From assembly GCF_004010195.1 (NCBI RefSeq), contig NC_057736.1, forward strand, positions 11,091,968 to 11,155,967: a DNA stretch of 64,000 bases, read 5' to 3'. Shown here one piece after another: positions 15,411 through 61,093 of this stretch. The notes beneath the pieces were generated by a model. That model was not told the origin of the DNA. It made no database searches and saw only the letters and a program-made list of their open reading frames with translations. The first letter of the stretch is position 1. Every line of letters starts with the position of its first letter. A program made the position numbers and the translations under genes. This DNA is from Chiloscyllium plagiosum (lineage: Eukaryota).

Positions 15411-15598
15411 ACGAGGTAAAAACAATGACTGCAGATGCTGGGAACCAGATTCTGGATCAGTGGTGCTGGAAGAGCACAGCAATTCAGGCAGCATCTGAGG
15501 ACAGGCAAAATCGACGTTTCGGGCAAAAGCCCTTCATCAGGAATAAAGGCAGAGAGCCTGAAGCATGGAGAGATAAGCTAGAGGAGGGTGGGGGTGGG
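15411..15598 (-). mobile_element. Penelope-like (Neptune-type) 3' end stub
   Basis: Same terminal sequence (ggtaaaaacaatgactgcagat...) as the GIY-YIG element at 41508-42316. Confidence 0.85.
15513..15540 (-). ncRNA. Minimal hammerhead ribozyme motif (intact core)
   Basis: CUGAUGA-A-GGGC-UUUU-GCCC-GAAAC-GUC. Confidence 0.75.
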
Positions 15599-17424
15599 TA
15601 AACAGCTCCTTCAGATTGGAGGTCTAGCAAATTATATCTGCAGCCCCTCCATTCCAGTTAAAGCAGCCCCAGCTTATAAATCTTCCTGTTAAAACATCCC
15701 AATACTGGCAACATTCTCACAAACACCTGTTCTCTCCGGTGTAACTTCATTCTCCTTTTAATGGAGTGATACTGTCGTTATGGTTTAATAATTGTTTTAT
15801 GCAGACTGTCCTAATTTCATAAAATGTGCCTCATCTAATAAACAGAAGTATCACATATGGTTTCATAACCACCTTCAGACATCTGTAGATATGCATACCT
15901 AGTAGGCTGTCTCTCTAAATGTCTTGGTATCCCATTATTTATGATACATTGTACTTACTTGTCTTGTTAGCCCTCCATAACATATTTCTCCATAATACAT
16001 TTCTCAGGATTGAATATCATTAGTCACTTTGTTGTCTTATCAAGATAGTCGATTTATGGGTTCCTGCAGTCCTCTGCTGCTGCTGCTTTGGTACCCATGA
16101 AGAACGTTCACTATGAAGAGCAAAGAAACCTTGTGTTGAGCCCCATAATATGACTGGAAACATCTTTCCAGCTACAAAAACACTTATTGAGCATGACTCT
16201 GTTAGCTGTCAATTTTGACATGGCTTGTTTATCATGATTCCACTGCATTTTACTTTTCATATAAAATCCATATATACTACATCAAATGCATTATTCCAAT
16301 CCGACTCTTCTGGACTAACTTAAAAAATCAGTCTATTTAATCAGACGTAACCATTCCTTAGCAAAACCATGTCGATTGTCCTTGATTAGTCCACCCTTTT
16401 CTAAATGGTGATTTAACTCAATCATACTAACTCTTTCCAGTAATAGGTTAGCCTGACTGGTTTGTAATTGCTTAATATATCCCTTCCTTCTTACCAAAGT
16501 TAGCAGTAGCTCCTTCAGTCCTCTTGCCATGCCTGTAGCCATAGGGAATTGGAAAATGATGGTCAGTCTGCTTTGCTTCTTTCAATGTTCCATAAGACCA
16601 TAAGAAATAGGAACAAGAGTAGGCTGTTTGGCCCCTCAAGCCTGGTCCATCATTGAATAGGATCAGAGCTAATCCAACATTCTATGAGTCCACTTTTCTG
16701 CCCTTTCCCCATAACCCCTGATTCCCCCAATGAACCAAGAATCTACCTGTCTCAGTCTTAAATATACACAAGCATTCAGCCCCAAAAGATCTCTACAGAA
16801 AGAAATTCTAAAGATTCTCAACCTTCTGAGAGCAGAAATCCCTCCTCATTTCAACCTCAGATTGCTGCCCCTTTATTTTTGAGACCATGTCCTCTGGTCC
16901 TAGACTCTCCGAAGAGGGAAAACATCACCTCAGCATTTATCATGTACAGCCCCCAAACAAACCTACATGTTTCACAAAGATCACCTTTCATTTTATCAAA
17001 CTGTTTGGCCTTTGCTCATAAGAAAATTCCTTCATTTTAGGGATTATCCTATTGAACATTCCCTGAATTGCCTCCAATCAAGTGATATCATAAATCTTCC
17101 CTGTGTTGTGCCTTCTGATTTCAGCAGTCTGTTGTTATACTCCTGAGGGATGCAACTACCCTCTCTGCGAATTTTGGAACTGCACCCACACCCCAATGGG
17201 AACATTACCAGTTAAGAAATTTGATAGAGACCCAGACTAATGCTCTCAGATACAAATCCCACCATCCACACGTGGAATTTAAATTCACTCAATAAAATCT
17301 GGAATATAAAACTGGTTCTCAATGGTTTTTTTTCACAATCATGGTCACCATCAATCTGGTTGACTAGTGTCCTTCCAGGCAACATAATTTCCATCCTGAC
17401 TTGGTCTGACTTCTATACGATGTG

Positions 17425-17571
17425 TTGGAGCCAGTGTTAGACTGGGGTGGACTAAGTTAAAAATCACAACACCAGGTTATAGTCCAACAGGTTTATTTTG
17501 GAACTTCGAAAGCTACTGCTTCCAAATAAACCTGTTGGACTATAACCTGGTGTTGTGAGATTTTTAACTTT
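17425..17571. mobile_element. Penelope-derived fold-back (palindromic) mini element
   Basis: aagttaaaaatcacaacaccaggttatagtccaacaggtttatt and its reverse complement, pivoting at cttcgaaagcta; same family as 25982-26081 and 46827-47014. Confidence 0.7.
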
Positions 17572-18164
17572 ATATATGATTACAGTCCACAGAAATGTGG
17601 TAACCTTTAACTGCCCTTTGAAATGGCCTAGCATGTCACTCAGTTCAAGGACAATTTGGGATGGGCAACTAACAACAATGATGCCCTCATCTCATGAAAA
17701 TGTATCTCTTAAAAACTCAAATCTGGATCATATGAATCCAATAAACCAAAGTTTTAATACTGACTTGAGGGATGTCAGAGTCCACTTCCCTCCAGTGTAA
17801 AATAAAGACTCTTCATTGCTAATTATGTTAATTTTAGTCAATTTTGTATCCACATATCCACTGCCCCATTCATCCATTATGTGAACAAATCTTTTATATT
17901 ACTTGTGCAAACACCCTCTGAAACTCTGTACACACAAGATCAGTTGCACCAACTTCAACTGCCTCCATTGAAATTCGTTTATGGACTCAAATCACATTTG
18001 TCAGATGCTATTTGCCTTTAATAAACCCACATTGATTTTCATTACTTAACCCATGTTATTTTGAACATTAATTTGGGATTCTAAGTTTTCCACCAATGAG
18101 GAGGAGTTAACTAACCTTCTCCTTTGTTTTGAACACTCTCCAATCCTAAAGCATCGAATGAAGT

Positions 18165-19322
18165 GTGGGGTAGGCAATTCAGCCCTTTGAGCCCACTCCA
18201 CCATTTAACTTATCCTCGTCTCAACTCCACTCTCCTGTCTGCTCCCCAAAGCTCTTTACCCCAGTTTTTATTACCAACGTATCTATTTCTTTCTTGAATG
18301 TGTTGATTGATTCTGCCTCCACTGCATTCAGCGGCAGTGACTTCCACCAACTCTCAATCTTCTGGGAAAAGTAGTTTCTCCTCATCTCACTCTATATCTA
18401 CGCCCTTTTGTTCAAGACTGGCCCACAAGGGGGAACATCTGTTCAAAGTCCAGGTTATCAATCCCCTTTAGCATATTATATGCCTCAATCAGATCCCTCC
18501 TTGTTCTTCTGAACTCCAACAAGTACAACCCAAGCTATTCAACCATTCCACAAATCAACCTGTGAACCTCCTCTGAACTGCCTCCAGTGCTACAACCAAC
18601 TTACTCAATTAAGGAGACCAGAACTAGATACACTATTCCAGATGTGGTCTCACCAACATCTTGTATAATTTTAACATTACTACAATAAATGCCAGGATTC
18701 CCTTGGCCTTTCTGATTATATGCTGCACCTGCATACCCACTTTCAGCAATTCATGCACATACATTCCAGATTCCTCTGCACTGACGCACTTTGAATCTGC
18801 TTCCATTTAAATATGTTGCCTTGTGCATTTTGGCAAGCAAAATAAAATATTGCATTATCCACATTAAGTTCCATCTGCCAGACACATACATTCCAGATTC
18901 CTCTGCACTGACGCACTTTGAATCTGCTTCCCATTTAAATATGTTGCCTTGTGCATTTTGGCAAGCAAAATAAAATATTGCATTATCCACATTAAGTTCC
19001 ATCTGCCAGATTCTGACCCATTTTCCCCTCAATATCCATCTGTAAACTCTTTATCTCTTCATCACTGCCTGTTTTCCCACCTATTTTAGTATCATCCATA
19101 AATTTTGCTATGTTACATTCTGTCCCTGCTTGCATATCATTTACATAGATTGTAAATCGTTGCAGTCCGAGAATTGAATTCTGTGACATCACACTAGTTA
19201 CAGTTCACCATTTATCCCAATCATCTGCTCTCTGTCAGTCAGTTAGTCCTATCCAAACCAATACTCTACCCTGAACCCCCATGATCTAACCTCCGGGATC
19301 AGTCTTTCATGAGGCACCTTGT
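18165..19322 (-). mobile_element. Old CR1-like LINE fragment with an internal 127-bp tandem duplication (18756-18882 / 18883-19010)
   Basis: RT remnants IYVND..KFMDDTKIGG and WQMELNVD; the duplication is directly visible. Confidence 0.75.
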
Positions 19323-19724
19323 CAAAAACATCAATACAATTGACAAAGAGAATTGAAAGATTTTGGTTGGAGCCAAAATGGCAGAGTGGGCTCGAAGGGC
19401 TGAATTGCCTACCCCAATCTTCATTCCAATGCTTTAGGATTGAAGAGTGTTCAAAACAAAGGAGAAAGTTAGTTAACCTCTCCTCATTGGTGGAAAACGT
19501 AGAATCCCAAATTAATGTTCAAAATAACGGGTTAAGTAATGAAAAGTGCTATTTCCTTCCTAATACCTTCAGCAACCTAAAAAGCATTCTAATCAGACTG
19601 AGAATAGCCACCTTCATAAATTGAAACATAACGTGGAGAAGTCGGCTATTTAACACATCATACTAATAATGAACCTTTCATGACGTTGCCATCTGACTCC
19701 ATTTCTCCTCTCTTTCCCCACAGT

Positions 19725-20257
19725 ATAGAGTCATAGAGATGTACAGCTCGAAAACAGACCGATCGGTCCAACTCGTCCATGCTGACCAGATTTCCTAACC
19801 TAATCTGGTCCCATTTGCCAGCACTTGGCCCATATCCCTCTAAACATTTCCTATTCATGTACCCATCCAGATGCCTTTTAAATGGTGTAATTGTACCAAC
19901 ATCCACCACTTCCTCTGGCAGCTCATTCCACACACACACCTTTCTCTGCATAAAAAGGTTGCCCCTTAGGTCTCTTTTAAATCTTTCCCCCCTCATCCTA
20001 AACCTATGCCCTCTAGTTCTGGACTTGCCCCACCCCAGGGAAAATACCTTAATAAATTTACCCTACCCATGTCCCTCATGATTTTATACACCTCTATAAG
20101 GTCACCCCTCAACCTCTGATGCTCCAGGGAAAGCAGCCCGAACCTATTCAGCCTCTCTGTAGAGCTCAAACCTTCCAACTCTAGCAACATCCTTGTAAAT
20201 GTTTTCTGAACCTTTTCAAGTTTCACAACATCCTTCCTACAGGAAGGAGACCAGAAT
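19725..20257 (-). mobile_element. CR1/HER1-like LINE 3' end
   Basis: LEKVQKTFTRML...[22 protein letters not shown]; conserved tail. Confidence 0.85.
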
Positions 20258-21574
20258 CGTCAGGCACCTATTCCCTGTCACTTTTTACTTTTGAACCTTA
20301 CATACATCAGCCTTTTAGGAAGTGCATTCTGCATTTCTCCTTATTCCCACTCTGAATCATTTGTCAGGTATCTCAAATCCTTGTCCCCTAGTTACAAATG
20401 CCATGCCAGTGAAAAGAGTTTTATTGAAATGCCTTATCATTTTGAAAGTCTCTGTTAATTCTCTTTTAAGCATACTCTGATCCAAGAAGATGATTTAACT
20501 TGCCAGAAATATCTTTTAATTTTATCAATTTATCCACCCATCATTTTGACAGTGACAAACTCTTTGCACTATTTTTCCTGCCTCACTCCTCCTTCACATT
20601 TATTAACCATAGAAACTAGGAGCAGCTGTTTGAGCCTGCTCCACCATCATGGCTAAACATCTAACCCAATGCCATATTCCCACTTGCTCTCTGACACCTT
20701 GATGTGCTTACAACCTAAAAATGTATCTTTTTCTTTCTTGGATTCTCTGATTTATTAATGCATAATCAGGCCTCCTTCCTTTGCTTCATATTAATCTCAA
20801 TTGCCTTAGTCAGCAAGGGAGCTCCTTCTTGTTTTGGATACCCTACCTTTGCCTCTGATGGAAACGTGTTTAATCTATACCTGAATAACTCCTTCCTGAC
20901 GGCCTCCCATTGCTCATTAACTATTTAACCTGCCAATATTTGTTTCCAAAACATCTGGGTTGGACTCCTTGAAAACATGTAAATTAGTCTTCACCTCTTT
21001 TGTCCCTTTCCATGTTTACTGTCAATCTAATGGTGCTACTCTCAAGCTGTTATTGTTCATTAGGTGCTCTTACTTGTAACTTATTTCAGCTGGCACATTT
21101 CATTTGTGGAAATAGTTTTGTCCATGTTGAGCTCAACATACTGATTAAGAAAGTATTTTTAAGTTAAAAAAAATCCATTCCCTTCACTCAACTTATTATC
21201 TCCTTCTGCCTGTATCTGGTTAATGAAGACCCTTCCATTGTTGTTATAATTTAAATCTGCTCACATTTTCTCCTCCATCTCCTTCACACTAATTAGTATT
21301 CTTGAGTATTGCTGAAAAAAAGAAACATGTTGTTACAGCTTCTCATCTTGCACCTTCTGGATACGGTCAAAAGTGTCAAATTTCAAAGCAAATAATAATT
21401 TATACTTCATGAGAAAAGGATGCGGATTGGTTGGCAAGTCAGCTCCAATTGGCTGAGGCTTTACCAAGCACAATGCAATTAAGTTATTTTCTCCCAATTA
21501 GACCTAACTGCCAACTAATCTAGCAACTAATTTATGTTCAATTATCAAGCCTGTATTGATTTCTTAAAGAGTGT

Positions 21575-24679: not shown

Positions 24680-26699
24680 TCAATAAGAGGAAGAACAGAG
24701 AAAGAAATGAAAAGACTTGAATTGGAAGTAAGAGAGAAAATAAGGGCAAAGAAAGAAGAGTCCTTATCAGCCATGATCATAATGTTGCAGCAGACACAAA
24801 AAAGCAAATAGCTTACTCGACTCATTTACAATGTAAAGAGAATGAAGAAAAGAAAATAAGCCTTGAAGTGAAAAGAGAGAAATAAAAAGAACAAAATGAA
24901 GACCAATGGAAGGGAAATTGAATGAAAAATGCTATACTCTAAATGGGAAAGTCATATAGCATGTTTTAGCTAAAGGAAATCTTAGAATAAACGCGGAAAC
25001 AAAAAAATAGTTAAGGTAACGATTCTTATTCCACTGAGGAATTTAACTGGAGATCTGCGTTTCATGTCTGAATTTACAGAGGATAGAGTTGGAAAATAAA
25101 AGGAAAAGCAAAAACACTGGGGAAGCTGGAAATCCGAAACAAAAATAGAAAGTGTGGCAGCATCTGTGGAGAGAACAAAAATTAAAGTATCAAGTCCAAT
25201 ATAATTCTTCTTCAGAGAGTTTTGTAAAGATAGCTGTGAAGCTGAATCTTACGGTTGATGGGTACACCAATGAATGGCCAGTTTTTCAGAGAAACAATCA
25301 ATCTGCAGACTATCAATGTTAAAAAAGAAATTATCACTTCTTAAAATTTGACCCTGAAGTGTATCAATTAAAATGCAGTACCATAAGGAGGAAACCTAAT
25401 TAGACATCTGTAGAATTTGCATGGGAAAAATAATTAAGCCATCTATGGTTTTGATCACTGAATTTTCAGAGAAACAAGTTAAAACATGAGAAATGATGAT
25501 ACTGGAAGGATTCTGAAATAGAATTCTGATAACCATTAAGAATTATTTAGATGAATGTCAAGTATCAAAAAACTAAGACACAGCAGTTCTGTCAGATACA
25601 CATATCTCTCAATTGTGTGAAGTAGTGGTTGTAACAAGGTAATTGGAGGAATAAAGAAAACTGGGAATGAAAAAGCTACTAATTTTTGGGATTGAACACA
25701 AAAAAGCTTGAAGAAGAAAGGCCGGAACTTAAAAATTGATATAAAGAAAATAATACTGGAGTATATTCTCTCAGAACCTACAAGTCAGGGAGAGATGGCT
25801 CAGGACAATAAAGAAAGGTGGTTATGAATATTTTATTTCAAAAGCAGTAGTTCCTTATTCTTCTAATCAAGGAGGCAATCCAAGAAAGATATTGAGAAAC
25901 ATGTGCAAATCAGTCACTGATGCTGGCTGAAGACACCTGTCTTCCAGATGGGTTAAAGATCAGAAATATACATTTATTGGACATAGCACTAGCTTCCAAA
26001 TAAACCTATTGGACTATAACGTGATGTTGTGGTTTTTAACTTTGTCCACTCCAGTCCAACACCAGCCCCTCCAAATCATAATTATTGGAAGCACGCAAGG
26101 AGATTGCAAAACATTTCCATTGTCTGGAGTTGAATTAAAGAGTGACTTAATAAAGAGAGAAGTTGTAGTTGGATGAGTGAATAAATTTATTTTTTCTGAG
26201 GGAATGACTTGTATAGTTTAAAAATATTGGCCTCACCAACGATGTTGATATAGCCAGCTAAAGTAAAAGAAACGGATGTTACAGGAGTGACATCTTCGAC
26301 TGTTTTCAAGCGGTGCTGTGATTAGATTTCAGGTTCATAGAATTGGACAAGAAAAAGGGCGATGAAATAGAAGTAATATGGAAATTCAGTTTTGAAAACA
26401 CAAGTAAAATGTATAGAAAATTAGGCAAACCCCTGTTTAATACATCATCTTTTAATAGAAATATAACTGATAATTCATCATTTGAGAGAGAAGTATTAAA
26501 AAAGTCAAATTGAAATCAGAAGTAATACCTGTTTTATTATCGAGAGAAAGTATCAGTGAAGTTTATGGAGATCTCAAATACTAGATGGTGGTGATTGGGC
26601 AATGCTCAGTTTGCTCATACTTCCCAATTCTACAATAAAAACATAATCCAAAAATGTAGTAATATTCTTTCACCATTATGTACCATAAGGCAGACCAGG

Positions 26700-26795
26700 G
26701 TCTAGATTAGAGTGATGCTGGAAAAGCACAGCAGGTCAGGCAGTCTCAGAGGAGCAGGAAAAATTGACATTTTGGGCAAAAACCCTGCATTAGAA
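26700..26795 (-). mobile_element. Penelope-like 3' stub with a degenerate hammerhead
   Basis: 15-bp TSD ataaggcagaccagg at 26685-26699 and 26796-26810. Confidence 0.75.
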
Positions 26796-27053: not shown

Positions 27054-27200
27054 CAAGTGTGGTGCTGGTAAAGCACCTTCATTAGGCTTATGTCCGAAAA
27101 GTTGATTCCCCTGCTCATCGGATGCTGCCTGACCTGCTGTGCTTTTCCAACACCACACACTCAACTCTAATCTCCAGCATCTGCACTCCTCACTTTCTCC
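27054..27200 (+). mobile_element. Penelope-like stub with a short 5' inversion
   Basis: TSD tactgc(t/g)gagaa at 27042-27053 and 27201-27212; gtgtggtgctgg...ccaacaccacac inverted arms. Confidence 0.7.
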
Positions 27201-41082: not shown

Positions 41083-43168
41083 ACATAGAACATTACAGCA
41101 CGGTACAGGCCATTCGGACCTCGATGTTGCACCGACCTGTGGAACCAATCAGAAGCCAATCTAATCTGCACTATTCCATTCTCTCCATGTGCCTATCCAA
41201 TGACCAATTAAATGCACTTAAAGTTGGCGAATCTACTACTGTTGTAGGCAGTGCATTCCATGGCCCTACTACTGAGTAAAGAAACTACTTCTGACATCTG
41301 TCCTATATCTATGACCCCTCAACGGAAAACTATGTCCCCTCACGCTAGCCATCACCATCCGAGGAAAAAGGCTCTCACTGTCCAACTTATCTAACCCTCT
41401 GATTATCTTATATGTCTCAATTAAGTCACCTCTCAAACTTCTTCTCGCTAATGAAAACAGCCTCAAGTCCCTCAGCTTTTCCTTGTAAAACCTTCCCTCC
41501 ATACTAGGTAAAAACAATGACTGCAGATTCTGGAAACCAGAGTCTGGATTAGAGCGGCGCTGAAAAAGCACAGCAGTTCAGGTAGCATCCAAGGAGCTGG
41601 AAAATCGACATTTCGGGCAAAAGCCCTTCATCAGGAATATGGGCAGAGTGCCTGAAGGGTGGAGAGATAAATGAGAAGAGGATGGGGGAGAAAGTAGCAT
41701 ATAGTACAATAGGTGAATGCAGATGGGGATGAGGGTGATAGGTCGGGGAGGAGGGTGGGGGAAGGTAGCAAAGAGTACAATGGGTGGATGGGGGTGGGGA
41801 TGAAGGTGATAGGTCAGAGAGGAGGGTGGAGTGGATAGGTGGAAAGGAAGATAGGCAGGTAGGACAAGTCATGGGGACAGTGCTGAGCTGGAAGTTTGGA
41901 ACTGGGGTGAGGTGGGGGATGGGGAAATGAGAAAGCTGATGAAGTCCACATTGATGCCCTGGGGTTGAAGTGTTCTGAGGCGGAAGATGTGGCGTTCTTC
42001 CTCCAGACATCGGGTGGTGAGGGAGTGGCGGCGAAGGTGGCCCAGGACCTCCATGTCCTCAGCTGAGTGGGAGGGGAAGTTGAAATGTTGGGCCACAGGG
42101 CAGTATGGTTGATTGTTGCGGGTGTCCCAGAGATGTTCCCTAAAGCTCTCTGCTAGGAGGCGTCCAGTCTCCCCAATGTAGAGGAGACTGCATCGGGAGC
42201 AACGGATACAATAAAAGATAATGGTGGATGTGCAGGCAAAACTTTGATGGTCATGGAACGCTTCTTTAGGGCCTTGGATGGAGGTGAGGGAGGAGGTGTG
42301 GGCACAGGTTTTGTAATTCCCTCCGTACCAGACCACATCCGAGTAAATTTCCTCTGAACCCTTTCCAAAGCTTCCACATCCTTCCTATAATGCGGTGACC
42401 AGAACTGTACGCAATACTCCAAATGTGGCCTCACCAGAGTTTTGTACAGCTGCAACATGATCTCATGGTTCCAAAACTCAATCCCTCTACCAGTAAAAGC
42501 TAACACACTGTATGCCTTCTTAACAACCTTATCAACCTGGGTGGCAACTTTCAAGAATCTAAGTACCTGGACACTAAGATCTCTTTCCTCATCTACACTA
42601 ACAAGAATCTTACCATTAGCCCAGTAATCTATATTCCTGTTACTCCTTTCAAAGTGAATCACCTCACACTTTTCTGGACTAAACTCAATTTGCCACCTCT
42701 CAGCCCAAGTCTGCAACTTATCTATGTCCCTCCGTAACCTACAACATTCTTTATCCACAACTCGACCAACCCTAGTATCATCTGCAAATTTACTAACTCA
42801 TCTTTCTATGCCTTCATCCAGGTCATTTATATAAATTACAAATAGCAGTGGACCCAAAACAGATCCTTGTAGTACCCCAATAGTAACTGAACTCCAGGAT
42901 GAACATTTCCCATCAACCACCGCCCTCTGTCTTCTTTCAGCTAGCCAATTTCTGATCCAAACCACTAAATCACCCTCAATCCCATGCCTCCGTATTTTGT
43001 TCAATAGCCTACTGTGGGGAACCTTATTAAAAGTTTTACTGAAATCTATATACACCACATCAACTACTTTCCCCTCATCCACCTGTTTGGTCACCTTCTC
43101 AAAGAACTCACTAAGGTTTGTGAGGCATGACCTACCCTTCACAAAACCGTGTTGACTATCCCTAATCA
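41083..43168 (-). mobile_element. CR1-like LINE (RT domain to 3' end) split by a Penelope insertion
   Basis: [55 protein letters not shown]. Confidence 0.9.
41508..42316 (-). mobile_element. Penelope-like (Neptune-type) element, 5'-truncated, GIY-YIG endonuclease region plus 3' end
   Basis: [29 protein letters not shown]...GIN; TSD ttccctcc(a/g)tac(t/c)ag at 41493-41507 and 42317-42331; hammerhead core 41607-41634 with a GAAAU change. Confidence 0.9.
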
Positions 43169-46826: not shown

Positions 46827-47014
46827 ATTTGGAGATGCCGGTGTTGGACTGGGGTGTAGAAAGTTAAAAATCATACAACACCTGGTTATAGTCCAGCAGG
46901 TTTAATTGGAAGCACTAGCTTTCGGAGCGCCAACCACCTGGTGAAGGAGCGATGCTCTGAAAGCTAGTGCTTCCAATTAAACCTGTTGGACTATAACCTG
47001 GTGTTGTATGATTT
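46827..47014. mobile_element. Penelope-derived fold-back mini element with a hammerhead variant
   Basis: Perfect 12-bp TSD atcacatgaaag; long inverted arms; core CAC-CUGGUGA-A-GGAGC-GAU-GCUCU-GAAAG-CUA-GUG at 46938-46966. Confidence 0.8.
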
Positions 47015-47986: not shown

Positions 47987-48117
47987 GAGCAAATTACTAC
48001 AGACGTTGGAAATTGCACTGAAAATGTCAAATGCTAGAGATCACAGCAGGTCAGACCGCATCCATGGAAACAGAGCAAGCTAACATTTTGAGTCGAGATG
48101 ACTCTTCATCAGAGCTT
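47987..48117 (-). mobile_element. Penelope-like 3' stub ending at a degenerate hammerhead
   Basis: GCU-CUGAUGA-A-GAGUC-AUCUC-GACUC-AAAAU-GUU-AGC at 48112-48082; flanking repeat actgcag. Confidence 0.7.
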
Positions 48118-50123: not shown

Positions 50124-50211
50124 TAACAATTTACATTCAAGCACAATTAAGAGTTCACCATTAATTAATGCCATGATTGAAATACTCTAGCAACATAGAA
50201 ACATTAGAAAT

Positions 50212-50365
50212 CTAGTCACTGTCATAGCCATCGTGCTTCAGCTTCTTGATCTGACCCTTGTGGCGTTTAATCTCACTCTGTAAACGCTGTATTTCATGCT
50301 CGTGATGGTTAATCTCCTCTTGATGATGTTTCCTCAGATTTTCAATCTGTTCCATTTCTTTTTCC
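50212..50365 (-). CDS. ATP5IF1: ATP5IF1 exon 3 (His-rich coiled coil)
   Basis: ttgcag| acceptor; [20 protein letters not shown]; stop TAG. Confidence 0.95.
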
Positions 50366-53300
50366 CTGCAAAACAGAACCACTTTAAATGGCCTGGTAGG
50401 TATTGAAAAAGGAAGCATTTTGTTAAAGATAAATCAGAGATTACTTTCTGAAGCCATAGCCAAGTAGCTATACATTTGAAAAGGCAAAAGGGCCTCATCT
50501 TTTCAGCAATACATGAGAGCAACTGAGCAGTCATAAACTGTGACGGTGTTATATTGAGCTAAGTGATCATAAAAGGAAGCGTTATGAAGAACCTCTCTAC
50601 CTTAGGAGACCCAGTGGTGTGAACAAACCTGGAGAAACTTCTCTTAAACCCATACATACAAAATTTAGACAGGAGTGAAGATTGACTACTACATTGGTGC
50701 ACAGGATCAATATTGTGCCAATGAGTGGTTCAGACATGTTCCAGCTTTAAACATCAAGTATTTATCCAACATACAGTATGGAACTCTGGGATTTGGTCTC
50801 GATGCTGATTTCAAGACTCTTGACATGGAGTCTGAGCAATCCTACTGCTGATCAACACAAACTCAAAATTTCCACCTTTAATTTGGCAATGTACTGGCAA
50901 TCTTGCTTTAGGATACATTAGATGGAAGTAATTGGTGTGCACGCTTTCATTTGCTGTGCTTTTTCAGACAAAGAAAACAGCTTCTTTCTGGGCAGGTTCA
51001 CATATCATTTGAACATGGTCATTGCCAGGCAATGACCATCTCTAATAACAGATTCCAACCATATCTCATGTTATCCAGTAGTATTACCAATGCTGAATCC
51101 TCCATCATCAATATCTTGGGAGGTTACCATCACCAGAAATTGAAATGGACCAAATAAATACCACTGCCACTTGAGTAGGTCAGAGGCTGGGAAATGGGGC
51201 ACGAGCTCACTTCCAGTCTCCCTGAATCATGAATAATACGATCTACAAGGCAAGTCAGGAGTATGATGGAATAGCCTCCATTTGCCTGGGATGAGTCCAG
51301 CTCCAACAACATTCAAGAGGTTTGACACCATGCAGGATAAAACAACCCTCTTCATTGGTACCCCTGCACCACTTTCAAGATTCGCAGTCAGGACATCTAC
51401 TAAATACACTGCAGTAATTCACCAAGATTTTCCCAGCCTCTTTCAAACACAAACTCTACAACCTAGAAGGACAAAAGGCAGTGGATTCATGGGCACACTA
51501 TCAACTGCACGTTCCTCTCCAAGCCACTCACCTGACCCAAACTAATTGGCATTCCTTCACTGTTCCTGGGAGAAAATCCTGAAATTTCCTTTCCAACAGC
51601 ACTATGGATATCCCTATACTCCAAGGACTGCAGTGGTTTAAGGCAGCTCCCTCTCCAGGGCAATTAACACTGGGGAAATCATGCTGGCCAAGCTCATGAT
51701 ACCCATATCACATCAACAAATAAAAGACAAAAGCAGTTTCTATAATCACAGAAAACAATACATTTCTGCAAAAGTCAGTTCTAAAAGATACCAGACCAAT
51801 CAAGACTCTTAATAGAGTCTTTACCAGAATTGGTGTGCTAAGCTTGTTTTTGATCATTTATAATATGGTTTCAATTGTTAGAACTAGTTGTCAGAAGTCT
51901 TACTATCAAGAATGAGTGAATTCACTCTGCTTTTCAGGTATACCTACACTAAATGTAGAACCTATGGTGTTAGTGACTGATAAGGCTCAGCTATTCAATA
52001 TTTAGGCTCGACCTGAGTCTGTAATAAGTCACATGATTCAACTTGCCACTTATTTAAATACCCCTCAGACAAACTGTAAAAGGGAGGTCACATTTTAGAC
52101 TAGCAGGGTAGATAAAATAAGCAGGGACTGTGGGTAAGAATTTTCAAAATATCATTTCAAATTACATGTTAAAATGTAACAACTTGCATCAACTGGTTGC
52201 AATCATGACAAAAGCAGTGGACTGAGTTGAATACATTGTAAACATTCAGGCTATCAAATTGAAATTTTACACAAATTCGAACAGTAAATTACTCTTGGCA
52301 GCAAACGTTCGATCCTTCTAAACAGTTTAGAGACAGTTGCAGAGAGTTGTCAATTTCAGAGAACCTCATCCTCTGAATTCAACAGATCCTCAATCAAGAT
52401 TTTAGAAACATTAAATTATATAATAACCCAAATCAGTCAGGGCAGGAAGGGGAAATAAACAGGTCACAATTGAGAAACCGACAGATGGTAGAAATTGTTA
52501 CCTGAAGTATTTCTCCTCTATTGCTGCCTCCCTTTTGCCAAACGCACCTCCAGCTTCTCTTATGCTCCCTCCTCCACCACCACCTTTGCCAGCACCTTTG
52601 CCCAACTCTCCCAGCTGAAACACAAACATCATCAATCTTTAGGTTAGCAAATACGCACAGAGCATTGGCCATGTTCCCTTGGAAAATGTCTTCTACCCCT
52701 TGGAAGGAAATTATACAGCTTTATATGCAATTTGAAGCAGCCTAACATCTCAGCAATATTAGGAACATTGGTCCTTTGAGGTTTAGGTTTGCTTGCTAAG
52801 TTGGTAGATTTGTTCTCAGACGTTTTGGTATCATGCTAGGTAACATCAGTGAGCCTCCACTGAAGCTCACGTGAGGCTTCAACAGAGGCTCACTGATGAT
52901 GTTACTTAGCATAGGAACAAAATGCCCAAGAACAAACCTCCCAGCACAATAAGGAAACTTACAACCTGAACTTCAACCTGAGTGACAAATCTTCTCAAAT
53001 CACATTGGTCCTTTGAGTTGCTCCACCACTCAAAAAGATCATGGCTGGTCTGGTTGCGGCCTCAGGCCTACATTATGGTCAGAGCTGAAACTTTATTGCT
53101 GGAACAGCACAGCAGGTCAGGCAGCATCTAGGGAACAGAAGATTCGACGTTTCGGGCACATGCCCTTCTTCAGGAATGAGCAGAGAGTGTTCAGCAGGAG
53201 AAGATAAAAGGTAGGGAGGAGGGACTTGGAGGAGGGGAGTTGGAAATGTGATAGGTGGAAAGAGGCCAAGGTGAGGGTGATAGGTCGGAGTAGGAGGGAG

Positions 53301-56300
53301 GCGGAGAGGACAAGAAGAAGACTGCAGGTCAGGAAGGCGGTGCCGGGCGGGAGGGACCNNNNNNNNNNNNNNNNNNNNNNNNNNNNNNNNNNNNNNNNNN
53401 NNNNNNNNNNNNNNNNNNNNNNNNNNNNNNNNNNNNNNNNNNNNNNNNNNNNNNNNNNNNNNNNNNNNNNNNNNNNNNNNNNNNNNNNNNNNNNNNNNNN
53501 NNNNNNNNNNNNNNNNNNNNNNNNNNNNNNNNNNNNNNNNNNNNNNNNNNNNNNNNNNNNNNNNNNNNNNNNNNNNNNNNNNNNNNNNNNNNNNNNNNNN
53601 NNNNNNNNNNNNNNNNNNNNNNNNNNNNNNNNNNNNNNNNNNNNNNNNNNNNNNNNNNNNNNNNNNNNNNNNNNNNNNNNNNNNNNNNNNNNNNNNNNNN
53701 NNNNNNNNNNNNNNNNNNNNNNNNNNNNNNNNNNNNNNNNNNNNNNNNNNNNNNNNNNNNGGGGGGAGGGGGGGTGAAGGAACTGGTGAGGTCCAAGTTC
53801 ATCCCCTGCGGTTGGAGTGTTCCCAGTCGGAAGATAAGACGCTCCTCCTCCGACCGTTGCGTTGTTGTGGTTTGGCGGTGGATGAGTCCAATGACCTGCA
53901 TATCCTCGGTGGAGTGGGAGGGGGAGTTGAAATGCTGTGCTACAGGGTGGTTTGGTTGGTTCGTCTGGGTGGCCCAGAGGTGCTCTCTGAATCGCTCCGC
54001 AAGTAGGCGGCCTGTCTCCCCAATATAGAGGAGGCCACACCGGCTGCAGCGGATGCAGTAGATGATGTGGGTGGAGGTGCAGGTGAATCTGTGGCGGATA
54101 TGGAAGTTTCCTTTGGGGCCTTGGAGAGAAGTGGGGGGGGAGGTGTGGGCGCAAGTGTTGCACCTCCTGCGGTTGCATGGGAAGGTGCCGGGAGTGGAGG
54201 TTGGGTCGGTGGGGGGTGTGAGTCTGACAAGGGAGTCGCGGAGGGAGTGGTCTCTACGGACAGCTGATAGGGGAGGGGAGGGAAATATATCGTTGGTGCT
54301 GGGGTCTGTTTGGAGGTGGCGGAAGTGACGGCGGATGATGCGCTGTACATGGAGATTGGTGGGGTGGTAGGTGAGGACCAGTGGGGTTCTGTTCTGGTGG
54401 CGGTTGGAGGGGCGGGGCTCAAGGGCGGAGGAGCGGGAAGTGGAGGAGATGCGGTGGAGGGCATCGTCGATCACGTCGGGGGGGAAATTGCGGTCCTTGA
54501 AGAAGGAGGCCGTCTGTGTTGTGCGTATTTTGAACTGGTCCTCCTGGGAGCAGATGCGGCGGAGACGAAGGAATTGGGAGAATGGGATGGCGTTTTTACA
54601 GGGGGCGGGGTGGGAGGAGGTGTAGTCCAGGTAGCTTATGGTCATTATAGTCAGCCCCAGATAAATCTCAATTCCCTTATATGTGAATAATCTAATGCAG
54701 CTTTCAGTGAATTTAAGAACCCAGCCTCCCCTGTAGAATTCAACACGAACAATACATTGAGAAATACAACATGTCTTTAGAAGGACTTTACACCTGTCCA
54801 CAACAGACAACATCCTTCACCTACAAACTATCCAGCAACATGAATGGCATTTAGACAACATGTTACTCCAGGATCTAAATAAGTCAAAACTGAAATAACT
54901 GTGGATGCTGTAAATAAAAAAAAAGGATATTGCTGGAAAAGCTCAGTTCTGGCAGCATCTTTGGAGATATTAGAGTTAACATTTTGGATCGAGTGACCCT
55001 TCCTCAGAACTCAACCTAAGACGTTAACTCTGATTTCTCTCCACAAATGCTGTCTGACCTGCTGAGCTTTTCCAACAATTTCTGTTTTTGTTGCTAAATA
55101 AATCAGTTGCGGCCTGCACAATTGCCCATACAGTGACAAGACAAATTTGAAACTGCAGTTACAATTTGACTTTCCACTGCAAATACAATCAGAGAGATGT
55201 ACAGCACAGAGACACTTCAGTCAAACTTTTCCATGCTGACCAGATATCCTAACCTAATCTAGTCTCATTTGCCAGCACTTGGCCCATATCCCTCCAAACC
55301 CTTCCTATTCATATACCCATCCAAATGCCTCTTAAATGTTGCATTTGTACCAGCCTCCACCACTTCCTCTGGCAGCTCATTCCATACACCTACCACCCTC
55401 TGCAAGTAAAAGTTGCCCCTTAGGTATCTTTCTCCTCCTACTCTAAACCTATTCTCTTCAGCGAGTTTTGAGAAGATTTGTAGCTCAGGTTGAGGTTTTG
55501 AATGTAGAACTGGAAGTTCATTTCCAGACATTTTGTTACCCTATTAGGGAACATCTTCAGTGGGCCTCATGCTGAAAGTCCCTGCTTTCTATTTATATGT
55601 TTGGGTTGATGTTATTTCCTGTGGTGAAGTCACCTCCGGTTCCTTTTCTTAGGGGGTGGTAGATGGGGTCTAACTCGACATGTTTGTTGATAGAGTTCCA
55701 GTTGGCATGCTATGCTTCTGGAATTCTCGTGCGTATCTTTGTTTGGCTTGTCCTAGGATGATTGTGTTGTCCCAGTCGAAGTGGTGTCTTTGCTCATCTG
55801 TGTGTAAGGATACTAGTGAGACAGGATCATGTCTTTTTGTGGTTAGTTGATCTTCATGTATCCGGGTGGCTAGTTTTCTGCCTGTTCGTTACAGTCTTTG
55901 CACGGTATTTTGTAAATGACATTAGTTTTGCTTGTTGTCTGTAATAGGGTCTTTCAAGTTCATTAGCTGCTGTTTTAGTGGGTTTGTAGGCTACCATGAT
56001 ACCAAGGGGTTCGAGTAGTCTGGCAGTCATTTCCGAGATGTCTTTGATGTAGGGGAGTGTGGCTAGGATTTCTGGACATGCTTTTTCTGCTTGTTTGGGT
56101 TTGTTGCTGAGAGATCGGTGGATGGTGTTCATTGGGTACCCATTCTTTTTGAATACACTGTATAGGTGATCTTCCTCTGCTCTGCATAGTTCCTCTGTGC
56201 TGTACTGTGTTGGCTTGTTGAAATAATGTTCATTTGAAATAAAGCCAAACAAAAGACACGCACGAGAATTCCTAGAAGCATGGCATTCCAAATGGGGGTG

Positions 56301-56611
56301 AAGGGGGGGGTTTAGATTAGATTAGATTACAGTGTGGAAACAGGCCCTTCGGCCCAACAAGTCCACACCGGGGTAGAGGTGAAGGGGGGTGACATCTGCC
56401 CGAGCTGCCCTGTCATTCACTCACTCAGTGACCGGGCCCGACATCACGAGCTGCCTCAGTGCTTGGGGGCTTTCTCCGCTCCGGCCCTCCCCGGGGGCCC
56501 TCAGGCCCAGACCACCCCCTGACCCCGGTGTGGTACCTGGCTACTGTCGCTGTAAGCCCGCAACTGCCGAGCGACAACGAACTGACTCCTGAGCACCAGC
56601 AAACGCGCCAT
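50212..56611 (-). CDS. ATP5IF1: ATP synthase inhibitory factor 1, mitochondrial; 3 exons, 113 aa
   Basis: 75+113+154 nt splice in frame: [25 protein letters not shown]|[38 protein letters not shown]|[50 protein letters not shown]. Confidence 0.96.
52502..52614 (-). CDS. ATP5IF1: ATP5IF1 exon 2 (inhibitory segment)
   Basis: [19 protein letters not shown] signature; tttcag| and CAG|gtaaca. Confidence 0.96.
52781..53001. mobile_element. Poseidon-type Penelope fold-back mini element
   Basis: Perfect 16-bp TSD acattggtcctttgag (52765-52780, 53002-53017); inverted arms around tcacgtga; degenerate hammerhead CUGAUGA at 52893. Confidence 0.78.
53082..54635 (-). mobile_element. Young Neptune-type Penelope-like element (RT thumb, Cys linker, GIY-YIG, 3' end) in ATP5IF1 intron 1
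   Basis: Open frame [59 protein letters not shown]; 9-bp TSD ttatggtca (53073-53081, 54636-54644); N gap 53359-53760. Confidence 0.92.
53142..53177 (-). ncRNA. Minimal hammerhead ribozyme (intact core with stem I)
   Basis: AUUC-CUGAAGA-A-GGGCA-UG-UGCCC-GAAAC-GUC-GAAU: 4-bp stem I, stem II, palindromic ACGU stem III. Confidence 0.8.
54887..55093. mobile_element. Penelope-derived fold-back mini element
   Basis: TSD ctaaataa(g/a)tca (54875-54886, 55094-55105); minus-strand GAGUU-CUGAGGA-A-GGGUC-ACUC-GAUCC-AAAAU-GUU-AACUC. Confidence 0.75.
55188..55452 (-). mobile_element. CR1/HER1-like LINE 3' end
   Basis: [17 protein letters not shown] plus tail. Confidence 0.85.
55455..56292 (-). mobile_element. 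Poseidon-type Penelope-like fragment with a 5' inverted segment
   Basis: [15 protein letters not shown]...[20 protein letters not shown]; degenerate hammerhead 55560-55527; 56240-56292 is the reverse complement of about 55700-55750. Confidence 0.8.
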
Positions 56612-56790
56612 CGTCCCCGTCCTTGCAGTGACCGAATGGCGGCCAACGCTGACGCCCACAGCACGTGACCCGCGGACCTGTCAATCAGGGTTCGTCACGG
56701 ACCCAAGAACCACGTGATCCCGGCCCCCACAGGGATGGTTCCGCCCCTGGAACCATGTGACTCTGGACCTGTCAATCAGGGAGTTGGTGC
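56370..56790. promoter_or_regulatory. CpG-island promoter of ATP5IF1
   Basis: CpG-rich; E-boxes at 56662, 56711 and 56754; CTGTCAATCA at 56678 and 56769; GC box at 56741. Confidence 0.8.
56537..56611 (-). CDS. ATP5IF1: ATP5IF1 exon 1 (mitochondrial targeting peptide)
   Basis: acgATGG start, Arg/Leu-rich presequence, CAG|gtacca donor, within a CpG island. Confidence 0.85.
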
Positions 56791-56814
56791 CAGTCCACAC
56801 AATGGCGCAAATGT

Positions 56815-58780
56815 TATAGAATCAAAGAACAAATAAAATTACAGCACAGGAACAGGTTCTTTAGCCCTCCAAGCCAACGCTGATCCAGATCATCTGTCTA
56901 AACCTGTTGCCTATTTTATAAGGATCTGTATCCCTGTGCTCCTTGCCCTTTGATACATCTTAAATGACATCATTGTGCCCATCCCTACCACCTCCACTGC
57001 ATTTCAGGCACACACCACACTGTGCGTAACTTTCCATGCATATCTCCCCTAATCTTTTCCACTCTCACCTTCAACTTGTGACCTCTAGTAATTATAGAGT
57101 TATAGAGTCACAGAGATATACAGCATGGAAACAGATCCTTCGGTCCAACCCGTCAATGCCGGCCAGATATCCCAACCCAATCTACTCCCACCTGCCAGCA
57201 CCCAGCCCATATCCCTCCAAACCTTCCTATTCATATACCCATCCAAATGTCTTTTAAATGTTGCAATTGTACCAGCATCCACCACTTCCTCTGGCAGCTC
57301 ATTCCATACACGCACCACCCTCTGTGTGAAAAGGTTGCCTCTTAGGTATCTTTTATATCTTTCCCCTCTTATCCTAAACCTATGCCCTCTAGTTCTGGAC
57401 TCCCCGGCCCCAGGGAAAAGACTTTGTCTGTTTATCCTATCCATGCCCCTCATAACTTTGTAAACCTCTATAAGGTCACCCCTCAGCCTCTGACACTCCA
57501 GGGAAAACAGACTCAGCCTGTTCAACCTCTCCCTGTAGCTCAAATACTCCAACCCTGGCAACATCCTTGTAAATCTTTTCTGAACCCTTTCAAGTTTCAN
57601 NNNNNNNNNNNNNNNNNNNNNNNNNNNNNNNNNNNNNNCAAGTTTCACAGCATCTTTCCGATAGGAAGGAGACCAGAATTGCATGCAATATTCCAACAGT
57701 GGCCTAACCAATGTCCTGTACAGCCGCAACATGACCTCCCAATTCCTGTACTCAATACTCTGACCTATAAAGGAAAGCATACAAAACGCCTTCTTCACTA
57801 TCCTAACTACCTGCGACTCCACTTTCAAGGAGCTGTGAACCTGCACTCCAAGGTCTCTTTGTTCAACAACACTCCCTAGGACTTTACCATTAAGTGTATA
57901 AGTCCTGCTAAGATTTGCTTTCCCAAGCAGCACCTCACATTTATCTGAATTAAACTCCATCTGCCACTTCCCAGCCCATTGTCCCATCTGGTCAAGATCC
58001 TGAGGTAACCCTCTTCGCTGTCCACTACACCTCCAATTTTGGTGTCATCTGCAAACTTACTAACTATACCTCTTATGCTCTCATCCAAATCATTTACATA
58101 AATGACAAAAAGTAGAGGACCCAGCACCGATCCTTGTGGCACTCCAGTTGTCACAAGCCTCCAGTCTGAAAAACAACTCTCCATGACCACCCTCTGTCTT
58201 CTATCTTTGAGTCAGTTTTGTATCCAAATGGCTAGTTCTCCCTGTATTCCGTAAGATCTAACCTTGCTAACCATTTTCCCATGGAGAACCTTGTTGAATG
58301 CCTTATTGAAGTCCATATAGATCACATCTACTACTCTGCCCTCATCAGTCTTCTTTGTCACTTCTTCAAAAAACTCAATCAAGTTTGTGAGACATGATTT
58401 CCCACGCACAAAGCCATGTACATCCTGTCCCTTGAGTCCCACACTCGGGGAAAATGCTTTTTGCTTTCGACACTGTCTATACCTCTCATGATTTTGTCGA
58501 CCCAATCAGTTCCCCACTCAATCTCCATCTTTCTAATAAAAACAATTCTAACATACTCAACCTCTTTTCATAGCTAGCACTCTCTAAAAGGCAACATCCT
58601 AGTGAACCTCCTCTGCACCCTCTCTAAAGCATCCACATCCTTTTGGTAAGGTGGCGACCAGAACTGTACACAGTATTCTAAATGTGACCGAACCAAAATC
58701 TTATACATCTGTAACATGACCTACCAATTCTTATACTCAATAACCTGTCTGATGAAGGGAAGCATGCTGTATGCCTTTTT
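56815..58780 (-). mobile_element. Young CR1/HER1-like LINE (57094-58420) nested in an older CR1-like LINE
   Basis: [53 protein letters not shown]; frameshifted; older LINE sequence on both sides. Confidence 0.88.
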
Positions 58781-59030
58781 AGATGAGATTACATTCCCCT
58801 ACAGTATGGAAACAGGCCCTTCAGCCCAACAAGACCACACTGACCCTCCAAAGAGTAACCTACCCAGACCCATTCCCTGACCCTATATTTACCCCTGACT
58901 AATGCACCTAACACTATGGGCAATTTGGCATGACCAATTCATCTAACCTGCACATCTTTGGATTATGGGAGGCAGCCAGAGGAAACCCACACAGACACGG
59001 GGAGAATGTGCAAACTCCACACAGACAGTC
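58781..59030 (-). mobile_element. HE1-like V-SINE, 5'-truncated
   Basis: V-domain remnant and LINE-like tail. Confidence 0.75.
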
Positions 59031-59430
59031 GAATTTTGACAGGGTAAAGAAGTATATTCTGCTTACACTAGTTGGTATGTCAGTAACTAGGAATAACAAT
59101 TTCAAGACTGTCAGCAAGAGAGCTAGAGTGAGATGAGGAGAAATGTCTTTACTGAGAGAGTTGTTAGGATTTGGAATATGCTTCCTGGGAGAGTGGTGCA
59201 GATGGATTCAATTGGAAGTTTCAATAGAGAGTTAAATAGTGAGTAATGTACAGTGCTATGGAAATAGGGCTGGAGAATGGGACTGGCTGGAGAGCTCTTT
59301 TGGGAGCCAATACAGACACTTTGGGCTGAATAGCCATCTTCTGTACTGTAAAATTCTATGATTATATAATTATGAATCACGTTTTTGTTCCTGGATGTTG
59401 ACCGAAGCACTGTGTACTTACTACATCTTG

Positions 59431-59755
59431 ATTAGATTAGATTAGTTACAGTGTGGAAACAGGCCCTTCGGCCCAACAAGTCCACACCAACCCGCCGAAG
59501 TGCAACCCACCCAGACCCATTCCCCTACATTTACCGCTTCACCTAACACTAAGGGAAATTTAGCGTGGCCAATTCACCTAACCTGCACATTTTTGGACTG
59601 TGGGAGGAAACCGGAGCACCCGGAAGAAACCCGCGCAGACACGGGGAGAATGTGCAAACTCCACACAGTCAGTCACCTGAGGCAGGAATTGAACCTGGGT
59701 CTCTGGCGCTGTAAGGCAACAGTGCTAACCACTGTGCCACTATGCCACCGTGCCC
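59431..59755 (-). mobile_element. Full-length HE1-like V-SINE
   Basis: A and B boxes, V-domain, (AATCT)n tail. Confidence 0.88.
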
Positions 59756-61001
59756 CTAGATTTCTTCCCCTAGATTTCCAGTTAACTATAATTATTGACC
59801 TCAGGTTCTTGATTTTTTGATGACTAGCAATTAATCAGTGTCTTCATTCCCAGTTTGAACTAAAACTGGAAATGTTTCAGCATCAGTAAATGAGAAAGGA
59901 AATTGTATTCCACCCTCATCCCAAAATTAGAAAGTTTGCAATTCAGTTTCTAGCAAAACTAATACCTTAGTATCTTAGGTAAATAATTGTAAAGTACATG
60001 TAATTATAATTAAATTGCTTTATTGCGGTTTGCATGCATTTAGAGCATTGTTTTTCTAATTGAATCAAAAATTAATAATTGAAAATGCATTGTACAACTT
60101 AGCAAACTACAACCCATGCAGGCTACACCGAACACTGAAATGTGTGTCTTGACCAAATTTGAAACCAGTATTATTATCTAAAGTGAATTCATCTAATATT
60201 GCTGTTGATCAGTTTGAGAGGAAAGTGTTTGCAAGGGTACTGATTTATTCTTTTTCCTCAACTGTACGAAGCACCATCTAATGGTCAGGTAAGAAATGAC
60301 TGAACATCACATGTGGTTTGGAATTGGAGCTCAGGGTGACATTACAGTACCAGCTTTCATGTAATGGATTTATTTGTGTTCCTGATGGATCTTCTTAATG
60401 GCCCTGTGTAGTTAGTCTCAGGTCTCAAGTGTAGTTTGGATGTAGTAATAACTGTTAACCTTTAGACTATTGCAATGTTCATTCCTTATGGAAATCTAAA
60501 TAATTATAGTGTGGTCACACTGCAGTAAATATGTATACACAATGTTTCACAACAGTTAAAAAAAGAGGTAAGTCAAGCTTGTTTTGGGTATTGGTTGAAA
60601 GAGGAATGCTGATTAGGTCCCTGAGAAAACGCTCTGCTTTTTTTTGGATAATTTTTTTTCTGCATTCAACTTGACAGAGACAGAGTCTTACAATTTAACA
60701 TATTAACTATTAGGCATTAAAAGCACTCTTCAGTTCGGCTTAAGTTTGGAAGCACCATCATCTCCAAGTCAGACATGATCTTCAGGTTGATGTGTATCGC
60801 CTTTGCTTTGGTGTGGCTGGGTCAATAACCAAGCATTCCCTATCTGACATTATTGTGTGATTGCCATCACAACATGAGAGGTTTAAAGAGAATACATAAG
60901 TCACCAAACTCACAGGATGAGGTCATCGCTGCATTTATTGCCTATCCCTAATTGCCTTATTGTTGGTCTCGAGTCACATGGAGGCCAGACCAGGTAACGA
61001 T

Positions 61002-61093
61002 AGACAGGCAGGAGGCCGGAAGAACACGGCAAGCCAGGCAGCATCTGGAGATGGAGATTTTGACCCTTTGGGTATAACCCTTCTTCAGGAAGG
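61002..61093 (-). mobile_element. Penelope-like 3' stub ending at a degenerate hammerhead
   Basis: TSD ccaggtaa(c/g)gat (60990-61001, 61094-61105); CUGAAGA-A-GGGU-UAU-ACCC-AAAGG-GUC. Confidence 0.7.

What the first reader, a model, noticed from the sequence alone, without database searches (positions are those of the whole stretch)
15411..61093. A population of tiny Penelope-derived stubs and fold-back hairpins whose breakpoints cluster at a hammerhead ribozyme
Seen: about a dozen CUGANGA-stem II-GAAA-NUH motifs (15513, ~26770, ~27080, 30409, ~30590, 30695, 41607, 46938, 48082, 52893, 53146, 54978, 55527, 61062) from several sequence families. Stem II, stem I and the palindromic stem III (ACGU or AGCU) differ in sequence but keep their pairing. 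Most of the short inserts (90-220 bp) have 7-16 bp TSDs. They either stop a few nt 5' of the core (26795, 48117, 61093) or fold back at or next to it (~17505, ~27078, 30697, ~46930, ~52870, ~55010). Established: Penelope-like elements carry minimal, probably dimer-acting hammerheads in their terminal repeats and can show inverted 5' segments. Inference: either the ribozyme region is a stop/fold-back hotspot for the RT, or these are a non-autonomous class of ribozyme-bearing mini-retroelements mobilised in trans by Neptune/Poseidon enzymes.
Basis: partly seen in the sequence, partly recalled or inferred. Interest (0 to 1): 0.8.

Follow-up and report, generated by a model that had tools for sequence, protein, structure and literature searches.

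The report
Penelope retroelement stubs ending at cap
These short stubs and hairpins are aborted copies of a Penelope-type jumping gene; they stop not where its small ribozyme cuts but just in front of it, with an extra G that suggests the copying enzyme ran off the capped start of the RNA, which gives a testable clue to how these elements copy themselves.

Summary
Largely real, but re-explained. All 14 listed motifs are homologous to Penelope-like element (PLE) hammerheads. Only 4 keep an intact core, and 4 sit in longer copies. In 80 blind 10-kb stretches, 115 of 178 arms that reach the ribozyme end between 12 nt before and 10 nt after the first C of CUGANGA (break rate in the peak 10-45 times background). 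Only 9 of 212 end at the cleavage site. Hairpins pair one tailed and one tail-less arm (43 of 49), often carry TSDs (26 of 49) and mostly have different pivots, so they form anew at each insertion.

New test: in one young subfamily a G precedes the A four bases before the core in 60% of 7,563 non-template junctions, against 14% one base downstream. This is the cap signature known from full-length L1.

Best reading: the capped RNA begins at the hammerhead. Reverse transcription primed internally from both target nicks runs off the cap, leaving stubs or head-to-head hairpins. The architecture is published; the cap-end clustering was not found in my searches. This scan noted the same stubs before elsewhere in this genome. 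No RNA start was shown directly.

The parts
15411..15598 (-). Family A 3' end with intact min-HHR (core C at 15540) and tail; reaches about 55 nt upstream of the core; no short TSD; between two 730-bp direct copies
17422..17572 (.). Family B hairpin, pivot past the core (+17/+35), 8-bp TSD with 1 mismatch
25982..26081 (+).
26700..26795 (-). Family A tail-less stub, degenerate core, 15-bp TSD
27054..27200 (+). Family A tailed arm from about +9 plus a short inverted arm, 12-bp TSD
30362..30820 (.). Four-arm family A composite inside one 10-bp TSD; includes the 30609-30820 hairpin with intact core at 30695 and a junction with 3-nt microhomology
41503..42313 (-). Longer family A copy: GIY-YIG remnant, 3' UTR, intact core (41634), tail
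46827..47014 (.). Family B hairpin (tailed arm from +14, tail-less arm from about -7), 12-bp TSD
47987..48117 (-). Family C stub ending about 4 nt before the core, degenerate GAAA, 7-bp TSD
52781..53001 (.). Family D (Poseidon-like, label recalled) hairpin, both arms from about -17, 16-bp TSD
53079..54800 (-). Longer family A copy with assembly gap: Cys-rich linker and GIY-YIG (PF01541, E 9.9e-5), 3' UTR, intact core (53173), tail-less end; shows the HHR is sense to the ORF
54887..55093 (.). Family C hairpin; tailed arm starts at the A at -4 preceded by G; 12-bp TSD
55455..56321 (-). Longer family D copy with degenerate core (55560)
61002..61093 (-). Family E tail-less stub ending about 4 nt before the core, 12-bp TSD

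Best explanation
The inserts are dead-on-arrival products of autonomous Neptune-type PLEs, made anew at each site. Positions count from the first C of CUGANGA = 0. (1) Inferred: a capped Pol II transcript starts at an initiator-like A just before the hammerhead (A at -4 of TCATTC in family A1; about -8 to -5 in family B). The hammerhead-plus-tail module therefore forms the RNA's 5' end and is repeated at its 3' end. (2) Shown in vitro for another PLE (PMC11167929) and mirrored here: the protein nicks both target strands and starts reverse transcription internally at two sites, here about +88 and +125. (3) Inferred: priming on the 5' copy of the module lets the cDNA run off the cap after 90-130 nt, often copying the cap as one extra base. 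(4) Inferred: end joining, with microhomology and short templated inserts, links one cDNA to the target (stub) or two cDNAs head to head (hairpin with one tailed and one tail-less arm inside a TSD). Longer copies come from priming on the 3' copy or from a strand transfer. Ribozyme cleavage (+28) does not set the ends.
For: Break rate is 90 events in 1,106 nt at risk at 0 to -11 (8.1 per 100 nt). It is 0.17-0.77 per 100 nt from +11 to +100 and 0.22-0.61 from -26 to -800. 115 of 178 arms reaching +20 end in -12..+10, and 9 of 212 end at +24..+33. Artefact controls: 13 of 13 long copies were still called at -138 or beyond with only other-subfamily references; 3 of 45 simulated upstream ends were miscalled into the peak. 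3' ends are bimodal, and 43 of 49 hairpins pair a tailed with a tail-less arm. TSDs were found in 26 of 49 hairpins versus 1 of 479 mismatched flank pairs. Genome-wide exact counts for subfamily A1: 34,784 copies reach -3, 27,148 reach -4, 19,585 have the template C at -5 and 14,381 reach -7. G makes up 4,544 of 7,563 non-template bases at -5 (60%) versus 1,054 of 7,636 at -4 (14%); base composition predicts 26%. None of 38 sampled G junctions carries the long 3' UTR upstream (by eye), so the G is not a template variant. An extra G from the cap marks full-length L1 5' junctions (PMC11702581, passage). Copies that run past the tail continue into an ATG-started frame, which puts the module ahead of an ORF start. 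Pivots differ: 13 short A1 hairpins give 13 different arm spacings, and three B hairpins with equal spacing have three different junctions.
Against: No RNA 5' end was observed; the read lay showed no place where many molecules begin. The G test is genome-wide for one subfamily only. Family B rests on 3 G of 4 non-template bases among 14 copies, and family C on 2 of 2. The -4 control is diluted by C from hairpin microhomology. In about 14 of 38 sampled G junctions (by eye) the G can also be read from the partner arm or a local duplication; for solo copies the 62-nt stretches do not show whether the G belongs to the target. The edge is not a single base: losses are 22%, 28% and 27% over -3 to -4, -4 to -5 and -5 to -7. 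The edge coincides with the 5' end of stem I in family A and with the border of sequence conservation between subfamilies, where single cross-subfamily alignments often break. Families B and C had only 3 long references each. No full-length element was retrieved, so the ORF start is assigned by position. Family D shows no clear peak.
Confidence: 0.68

Rival explanations
1. Non-autonomous mini-elements: short capped RNAs from stubs, or from internally deleted minis carrying both end modules, are mobilised in trans and supply the templates.
For: About 20 of 29 distinct loci that run past the tail are internally deleted tandems (ORF start joined to 3' UTR), a ready substrate. Tandem retrozymes derive from PLE pLTRs (bioRxiv 10.64898/2026.07.22.740005, parts 1-3 of 5 read). 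4 of 38 G-selected junctions share one pivot. A short RNA from the same start would leave the same G.
Against: Hairpin pivots mostly differ. All-against-all search found no shared upstream sequence among stubs other than the element's own 3' UTR or an inverted arm. In the Anolis PLE the protein needs RNA 3' of the initiation sites (PMC11167929), which stubs lack; this was not tested for these families. The 4 shared pivots fall in at least two sequence variants, as expected when both arms run to the same end.
Confidence: 0.17
2. Hairpins form by snap-back: one run-off cDNA folds on itself and is copied back, then is cut at the tail-less site, rather than by two primers.
For: Partner arms are more alike than random arms (family A 0.87 versus 0.77, n=25) and usually share variants. 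Some junctions show 2-3 nt microhomology, as at 30695. Self-priming was proposed for rotifer PLE palindromes (PMC3846280, passages).
Against: The second arm ends at the same tail-less site as solo copies (56 tail-less and 61 tailed among 123 solos), which matches the two in vitro start sites. Arms differ by a 2-nt variant in 5 of 10 young B hairpins. Two primers on one RNA also give matching arms.
Confidence: 0.25
3. The ribozyme itself sets the ends, by self-cleavage or by stalling the RT at its fold.
For: The edge coincides with the 5' strand of stem I in family A. The break rate rises mildly inside the core (1.6 per 100 nt at +1 to +10).
Against: Only 9 of 212 ends lie at the cleavage site, and an RT would meet the 3' side of the fold first. 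This reading does not predict the extra G. Cleavage was not needed for insertion in vitro (PMC11167929).
Confidence: 0.08
4. Alignment artefact: the conserved module simply aligns better than the subfamily-specific 3' UTR.
For: Single cross-subfamily alignments often break at -4 to -6.
Against: Leave-subfamily-out and simulation controls, TSD-bounded inserts, reference-free hairpin pivots, and exact-match counts within one subfamily.
Confidence: 0.03

Closest known systems
EN+ Penelope-like element insertions with inverted pLTR, tail and TSD (PMC3846280 passages; PMC8557442 passages)
   Same: 5'-truncated copy with an adjacent inverted copy, a 30-40 bp tail on one end only, a TSD, and palindromes at the inverted junction.
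   Different: Here the unit is usually shrunk to the 90-130 nt end module, ends cluster at the ribozyme's 5' edge, and a G excess points to a capped sense template. PMC3846280 proposed self-priming on an antisense template.
Minimal hammerheads of metazoan PLEs (PMC4209133, parts 1-2 of 4 read: results, discussion)
   Same: Same motif anatomy. Mostly single copies tied to truncated PLEs. Pairs on opposite strands about 100-700 bp apart were noted in Schistosoma.
   Different: In the parts read there is no mapping of breakpoints. That paper proposed cleavage and circularisation, which would put junctions at the cut site; no peak is seen there.
Anolis Poseidon PAc in vitro (PMC11167929, parts 1-2 of 4 read)
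   Same: Two internal RT start sites bracket the tail, both strands are nicked and extended, the hammerhead lies at the ORF's 5' end, and cleavage is not required.
   Different: Different clade. The parts read do not describe where cDNAs end in vivo or why hairpins form.
Non-LTR retrozymes (PMC7229834 passages; bioRxiv 10.64898/2026.07.22.740005 parts 1-3 of 5)
   Same: Non-coding, type I hammerhead, PLE-derived, in vertebrates including a cartilaginous fish.
   Different: Defined as head-to-tail tandems with circular RNAs. The window's inserts are single or head-to-head, with minimal and mostly broken cores.
L1 full-length junctions and twin priming (PMC11702581 passages); retroviral strong-stop DNA (recalled)
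   Same: Extra G from the cap; second nick used as a primer; short cDNA running off the RNA 5' end.
   Different: In twin priming the inverted part is a different stretch of RNA (recalled). Here both arms repeat the same module, and priming is by target DNA at internal sites.

Membership tests
EN+ PLE (Neptune type) insertion | Linked to an ORF with a C-terminal GIY-YIG endonuclease | tested here: met
   PF01541, E 9.9e-5, in 53761-54555(-), upstream of the family A module. Not shown for families B, C, D or E.
EN+ PLE (Neptune type) insertion | Zn-finger-like linker between RT and EN, and RT phylogeny in the Neptune clade | tested here: inconclusive
   Cys-rich words seen in the translation; no tree built; clade names are by resemblance.
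EN+ PLE (Neptune type) insertion | 30-40 bp tail on one end; adjacent inverted 5'-truncated copy; TSD | tested here: met
   43 of 49 hairpins are tailed plus tail-less; TSD in 26 of 49 versus 1 of 479.
PLE minimal hammerhead | CUGANGA, extra base, stem II, GAAA, palindromic 15.2-16.2, NUH, short stem I | tested here: met
   61 intact motifs in 80 loci versus 0-2 in 3 Markov controls; 4 in the window versus 0 in 30 controls.
PLE minimal hammerhead | Self-cleavage as a dimer | not testable with these tools
   Needs in vitro transcription.
Non-LTR retrozyme | Head-to-tail tandem units each carrying a hammerhead | tested here: not met
   No such tandem array in the window; inserts are single or head-to-head. 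Short tandems exist elsewhere (L023, L126).
Non-LTR retrozyme | Expressed as a circular RNA with a junction at the cleavage site | tested here: inconclusive
   No peak of genomic ends at +28; RNA lay uninformative.
Self-amplifying non-autonomous hairpin family (MITE- or SINE-like) | Copies share one fixed structure inherited from a master | tested here: not met
   Pivots differ between loci; one pivot recurs in 4 of 38 G-selected junctions.

The most novel reading that the evidence does not exclude
PLE replication starts like a retrovirus. The protein primes on the ribozyme-bearing module at the capped 5' end of its RNA, makes a 90-130 nt strong-stop-like cDNA, and must jump to the repeated module at the 3' end to copy the rest. 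The roughly one million stubs and hairpin arms (extrapolated) are failed jumps. This would explain pseudo-LTR regeneration, the inverted 5' copy and the tail in one scheme.
Probability: 0.35. Interest if true: 0.78.

Novelty: new variant of a known kind. Interest (0 to 1): 0.5.

Why it matters
How PLEs complete a transposition cycle is open. [quoted passage not shown] A base-resolution record of where cDNAs end, from tens of thousands of young copies, gives three things. It points to the RNA start. It argues for a capped sense template, against both the antisense self-priming and the cleave-and-circularise models. It gives predictions that the existing in vitro system can test. It also warns annotators that most hammerhead hits in such genomes are broken by-products, not ribozyme genes.

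Tried and rejected
Rfam: no hammerhead family reached E 5; only tRNA, snoRNAs and hairpin look-alikes.

RNA evidence: no RNA holder listed. Laying two single-cell poly(A) runs and two contig sets on L122: X22 laid nothing. X21 gave 1,017 reads on both strands, with a depth drop near -5 and no place where many molecules begin. This mirrors read-through of genomic copies and says nothing on the start site.

Splice-acceptor explanation (in D. virilis the intron end maps to helix I, PMC4209133): rejected, because families A and B have no AG at the edge and stubs share no common upstream exon.

Cleavage-site model: rejected.

The genome-wide G test in family B was not completed: one search gave 7,425 matches but their flanks were not read.

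BLASTP of the family A and D frames: no similarity, so the D clade label is untested.

Rows dropped: 5 of 249 hits scoring under 45, one duplicate hit, and the window's own hits were left out of the sample statistics; 14 censored ends were not counted as events.

Literature: 9 answered searches listed no paper mapping PLE 5' ends to the ribozyme edge or reporting a cap-derived G in PLEs. Subscription journals and Repbase are not covered, supplements were not read, and Fig. S2 of PMC11167929 (genomic coverage of PAc ends) may bear on this.
Full report
Setting. The window lies in a 3.56-Gb genome, shark-like by inference. It holds ends of at least five PLE families (A-E, my labels). The longer family A copy at 53079-54800(-) carries a GIY-YIG domain (PF01541, E 9.9e-5) upstream of the hammerhead, so the ribozyme is sense to the ORF. 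Positions below count from the first C of CUGANGA = 0; cleavage would fall near +28.

Observation in the window. All 14 listed motifs are homologous to PLE hammerheads, but only 4 keep an intact core and 4 lie in longer copies. Ten short inserts have 7-16 bp TSDs, and the stated stops 26795, 48117 and 61093 are exact. Five hairpins are confirmed. The ~27078 site has only a short inverted arm, and the 17505 hairpin lacks the core. Stems differ between families while pairing is kept (by eye).

Blind sample. I took 80 stretches of 10 kb at round coordinates, 20 of them on the window's contig (765,796 non-N bases). After dropping 5 weak hits, 1 duplicate and the window's hits, 221 arms remained: 212 of the Neptune-type families and 9 of family D. 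Extrapolated, that is about a million arms genome-wide. Exact matches alone number 69,836, 10,765 and 16,708 for three young subfamilies.

5' ends pile up at 0 to -11, at 8.1 breaks per 100 nt at risk, against 0.17-0.77 from +11 to +100 and 0.22-0.61 beyond -26. 115 of 178 arms reaching +20 end in -12..+10, 48 run further, and only 9 of 212 end at +24..+33. Controls: 13 of 13 long copies stayed long with other-subfamily references, and 3 of 45 simulated upstream ends were miscalled. Single cross-subfamily alignments do often break at -4, so the conserved block starts there too. Family D showed no clear peak.

Hairpins. Of 49 head-to-head pairs, 43 join a tailed arm (end near +125) to a tail-less arm (near +88), and 26 have an 8-18 bp TSD versus 1 of 479 controls. 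Pivots mostly differ. In young copies 13 of 13 short A1 pairs have different spacings, and three B pairs with equal spacing have different junctions. Junctions show microhomology and short templated inserts. Partner arms are more alike than random arms (0.87 versus 0.77 in family A), so they usually come from one source, although 5 of 10 young B pairs differ by a 2-nt variant. The two 3' ends match the two internal RT start sites found in vitro for an Anolis PLE, whose protein nicks and extends both strands and does not need ribozyme cleavage (PMC11167929).

What sets the 5' edge. The edge is beyond the ribozyme fold and about 30 nt upstream of the cut site. In family A1 it falls at the A of an initiator-like TCATTC (initiator consensus recalled). 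Genome-wide exact counts: 34,784 copies reach -3, 27,148 reach -4, 19,585 continue with the template C and 14,381 reach -7. Among the 7,563 that leave the template at -5, 4,544 have G (60%). Among the 7,636 that leave at -4, 1,054 have G (14%). Composition predicts 26%.

In 38 sampled G junctions none carried the long 3' UTR and 23 scored as hairpins. In about 14 the G could also come from the partner arm or a local duplication; two of the 38 share flanks. An extra G from the mRNA cap is the mark of full-length L1 junctions (PMC11702581). Support in other families is thin: B 3 of 4, C 2 of 2. Copies that extend past the tail run into an ATG-started frame, so the module also sits ahead of an ORF start; about 20 of 29 such loci are internally deleted tandems. 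RNA reads did not show a start site.

Mechanism. Shown: clustering, paired tailed and tail-less arms, TSDs, varied pivots, and the G excess in one subfamily. Inferred: a capped RNA start at the ribozyme's front edge, priming on the 5' copy of the module from one or both nicks, run-off at the cap, and end joining into stubs or hairpins (0.68). Rivals: short non-autonomous templates (0.17), snap-back for the hairpin step (0.25, compatible with the cap start), ribozyme stall or cleavage (0.08), artefact (0.03).

Known and new. Inverted pLTR, tail and TSD (PMC3846280, PMC8557442) and opposite-strand min-HHR pairs (PMC4209133) are published, and retrozymes are tandem derivatives that these inserts do not match. 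My nine answered searches listed no paper mapping PLE ends to the ribozyme edge or a cap G; coverage is limited to the open library. Earlier notes of this scan describe the same stubs elsewhere in this genome, and two already suspected the RNA start. A word search for a cap test found nothing, but only a few lines of each note are shown. Verdict: a new variant of a known kind, whose value lies in making the PLE cycle testable; interest 0.5.

Noticed in passing
window 14681-16330: The PLE end at 15411-15598 sits between two 730-bp direct copies at 99% identity: a giant target duplication, a tandem duplication or an assembly effect.
   Followed up: no
window 30362-30820: Four family A arms (a hairpin, a solo arm and a second hairpin sharing ends) inside a single 10-bp TSD: one complex event or nested insertions.
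   Followed up: partly
L111-L140: About 20 of 29 distinct loci that run past the tail are internally deleted tandems joining the ORF start (+145 to +558) to the 3' UTR (-14 to -244), with a few near-recurrent junctions; candidate non-autonomous minis or signs of RT jumping on a looped RNA.
   Followed up: partly
window 55560-55600(-) and L078, L095, L110: Family D has a TATA-like box about 35-50 nt upstream of the core; both arms of the window hairpin at 52781-53001 start near -17, roughly 30 nt below the box position in related copies.
   Followed up: no
L032:4935-5173, L040:9262-9534: One PLE family inserted into another family's end module, suggesting these modules are favoured targets.
   Followed up: no
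window 31900-37220 (-): Ribosomal-protein-like host gene (RPL13A by recall) with intronic SNORD33 (37143-37218) and SNORD34 (34958-35031); tRNA at 38943-39014.
   Followed up: no
window 14066-14387: A 320-bp hairpin made of a different, hammerhead-free repeat also present at 59413-59746.
   Followed up: no
window 61489-64000: 25-bp satellite array of about 100 copies.
   Followed up: no
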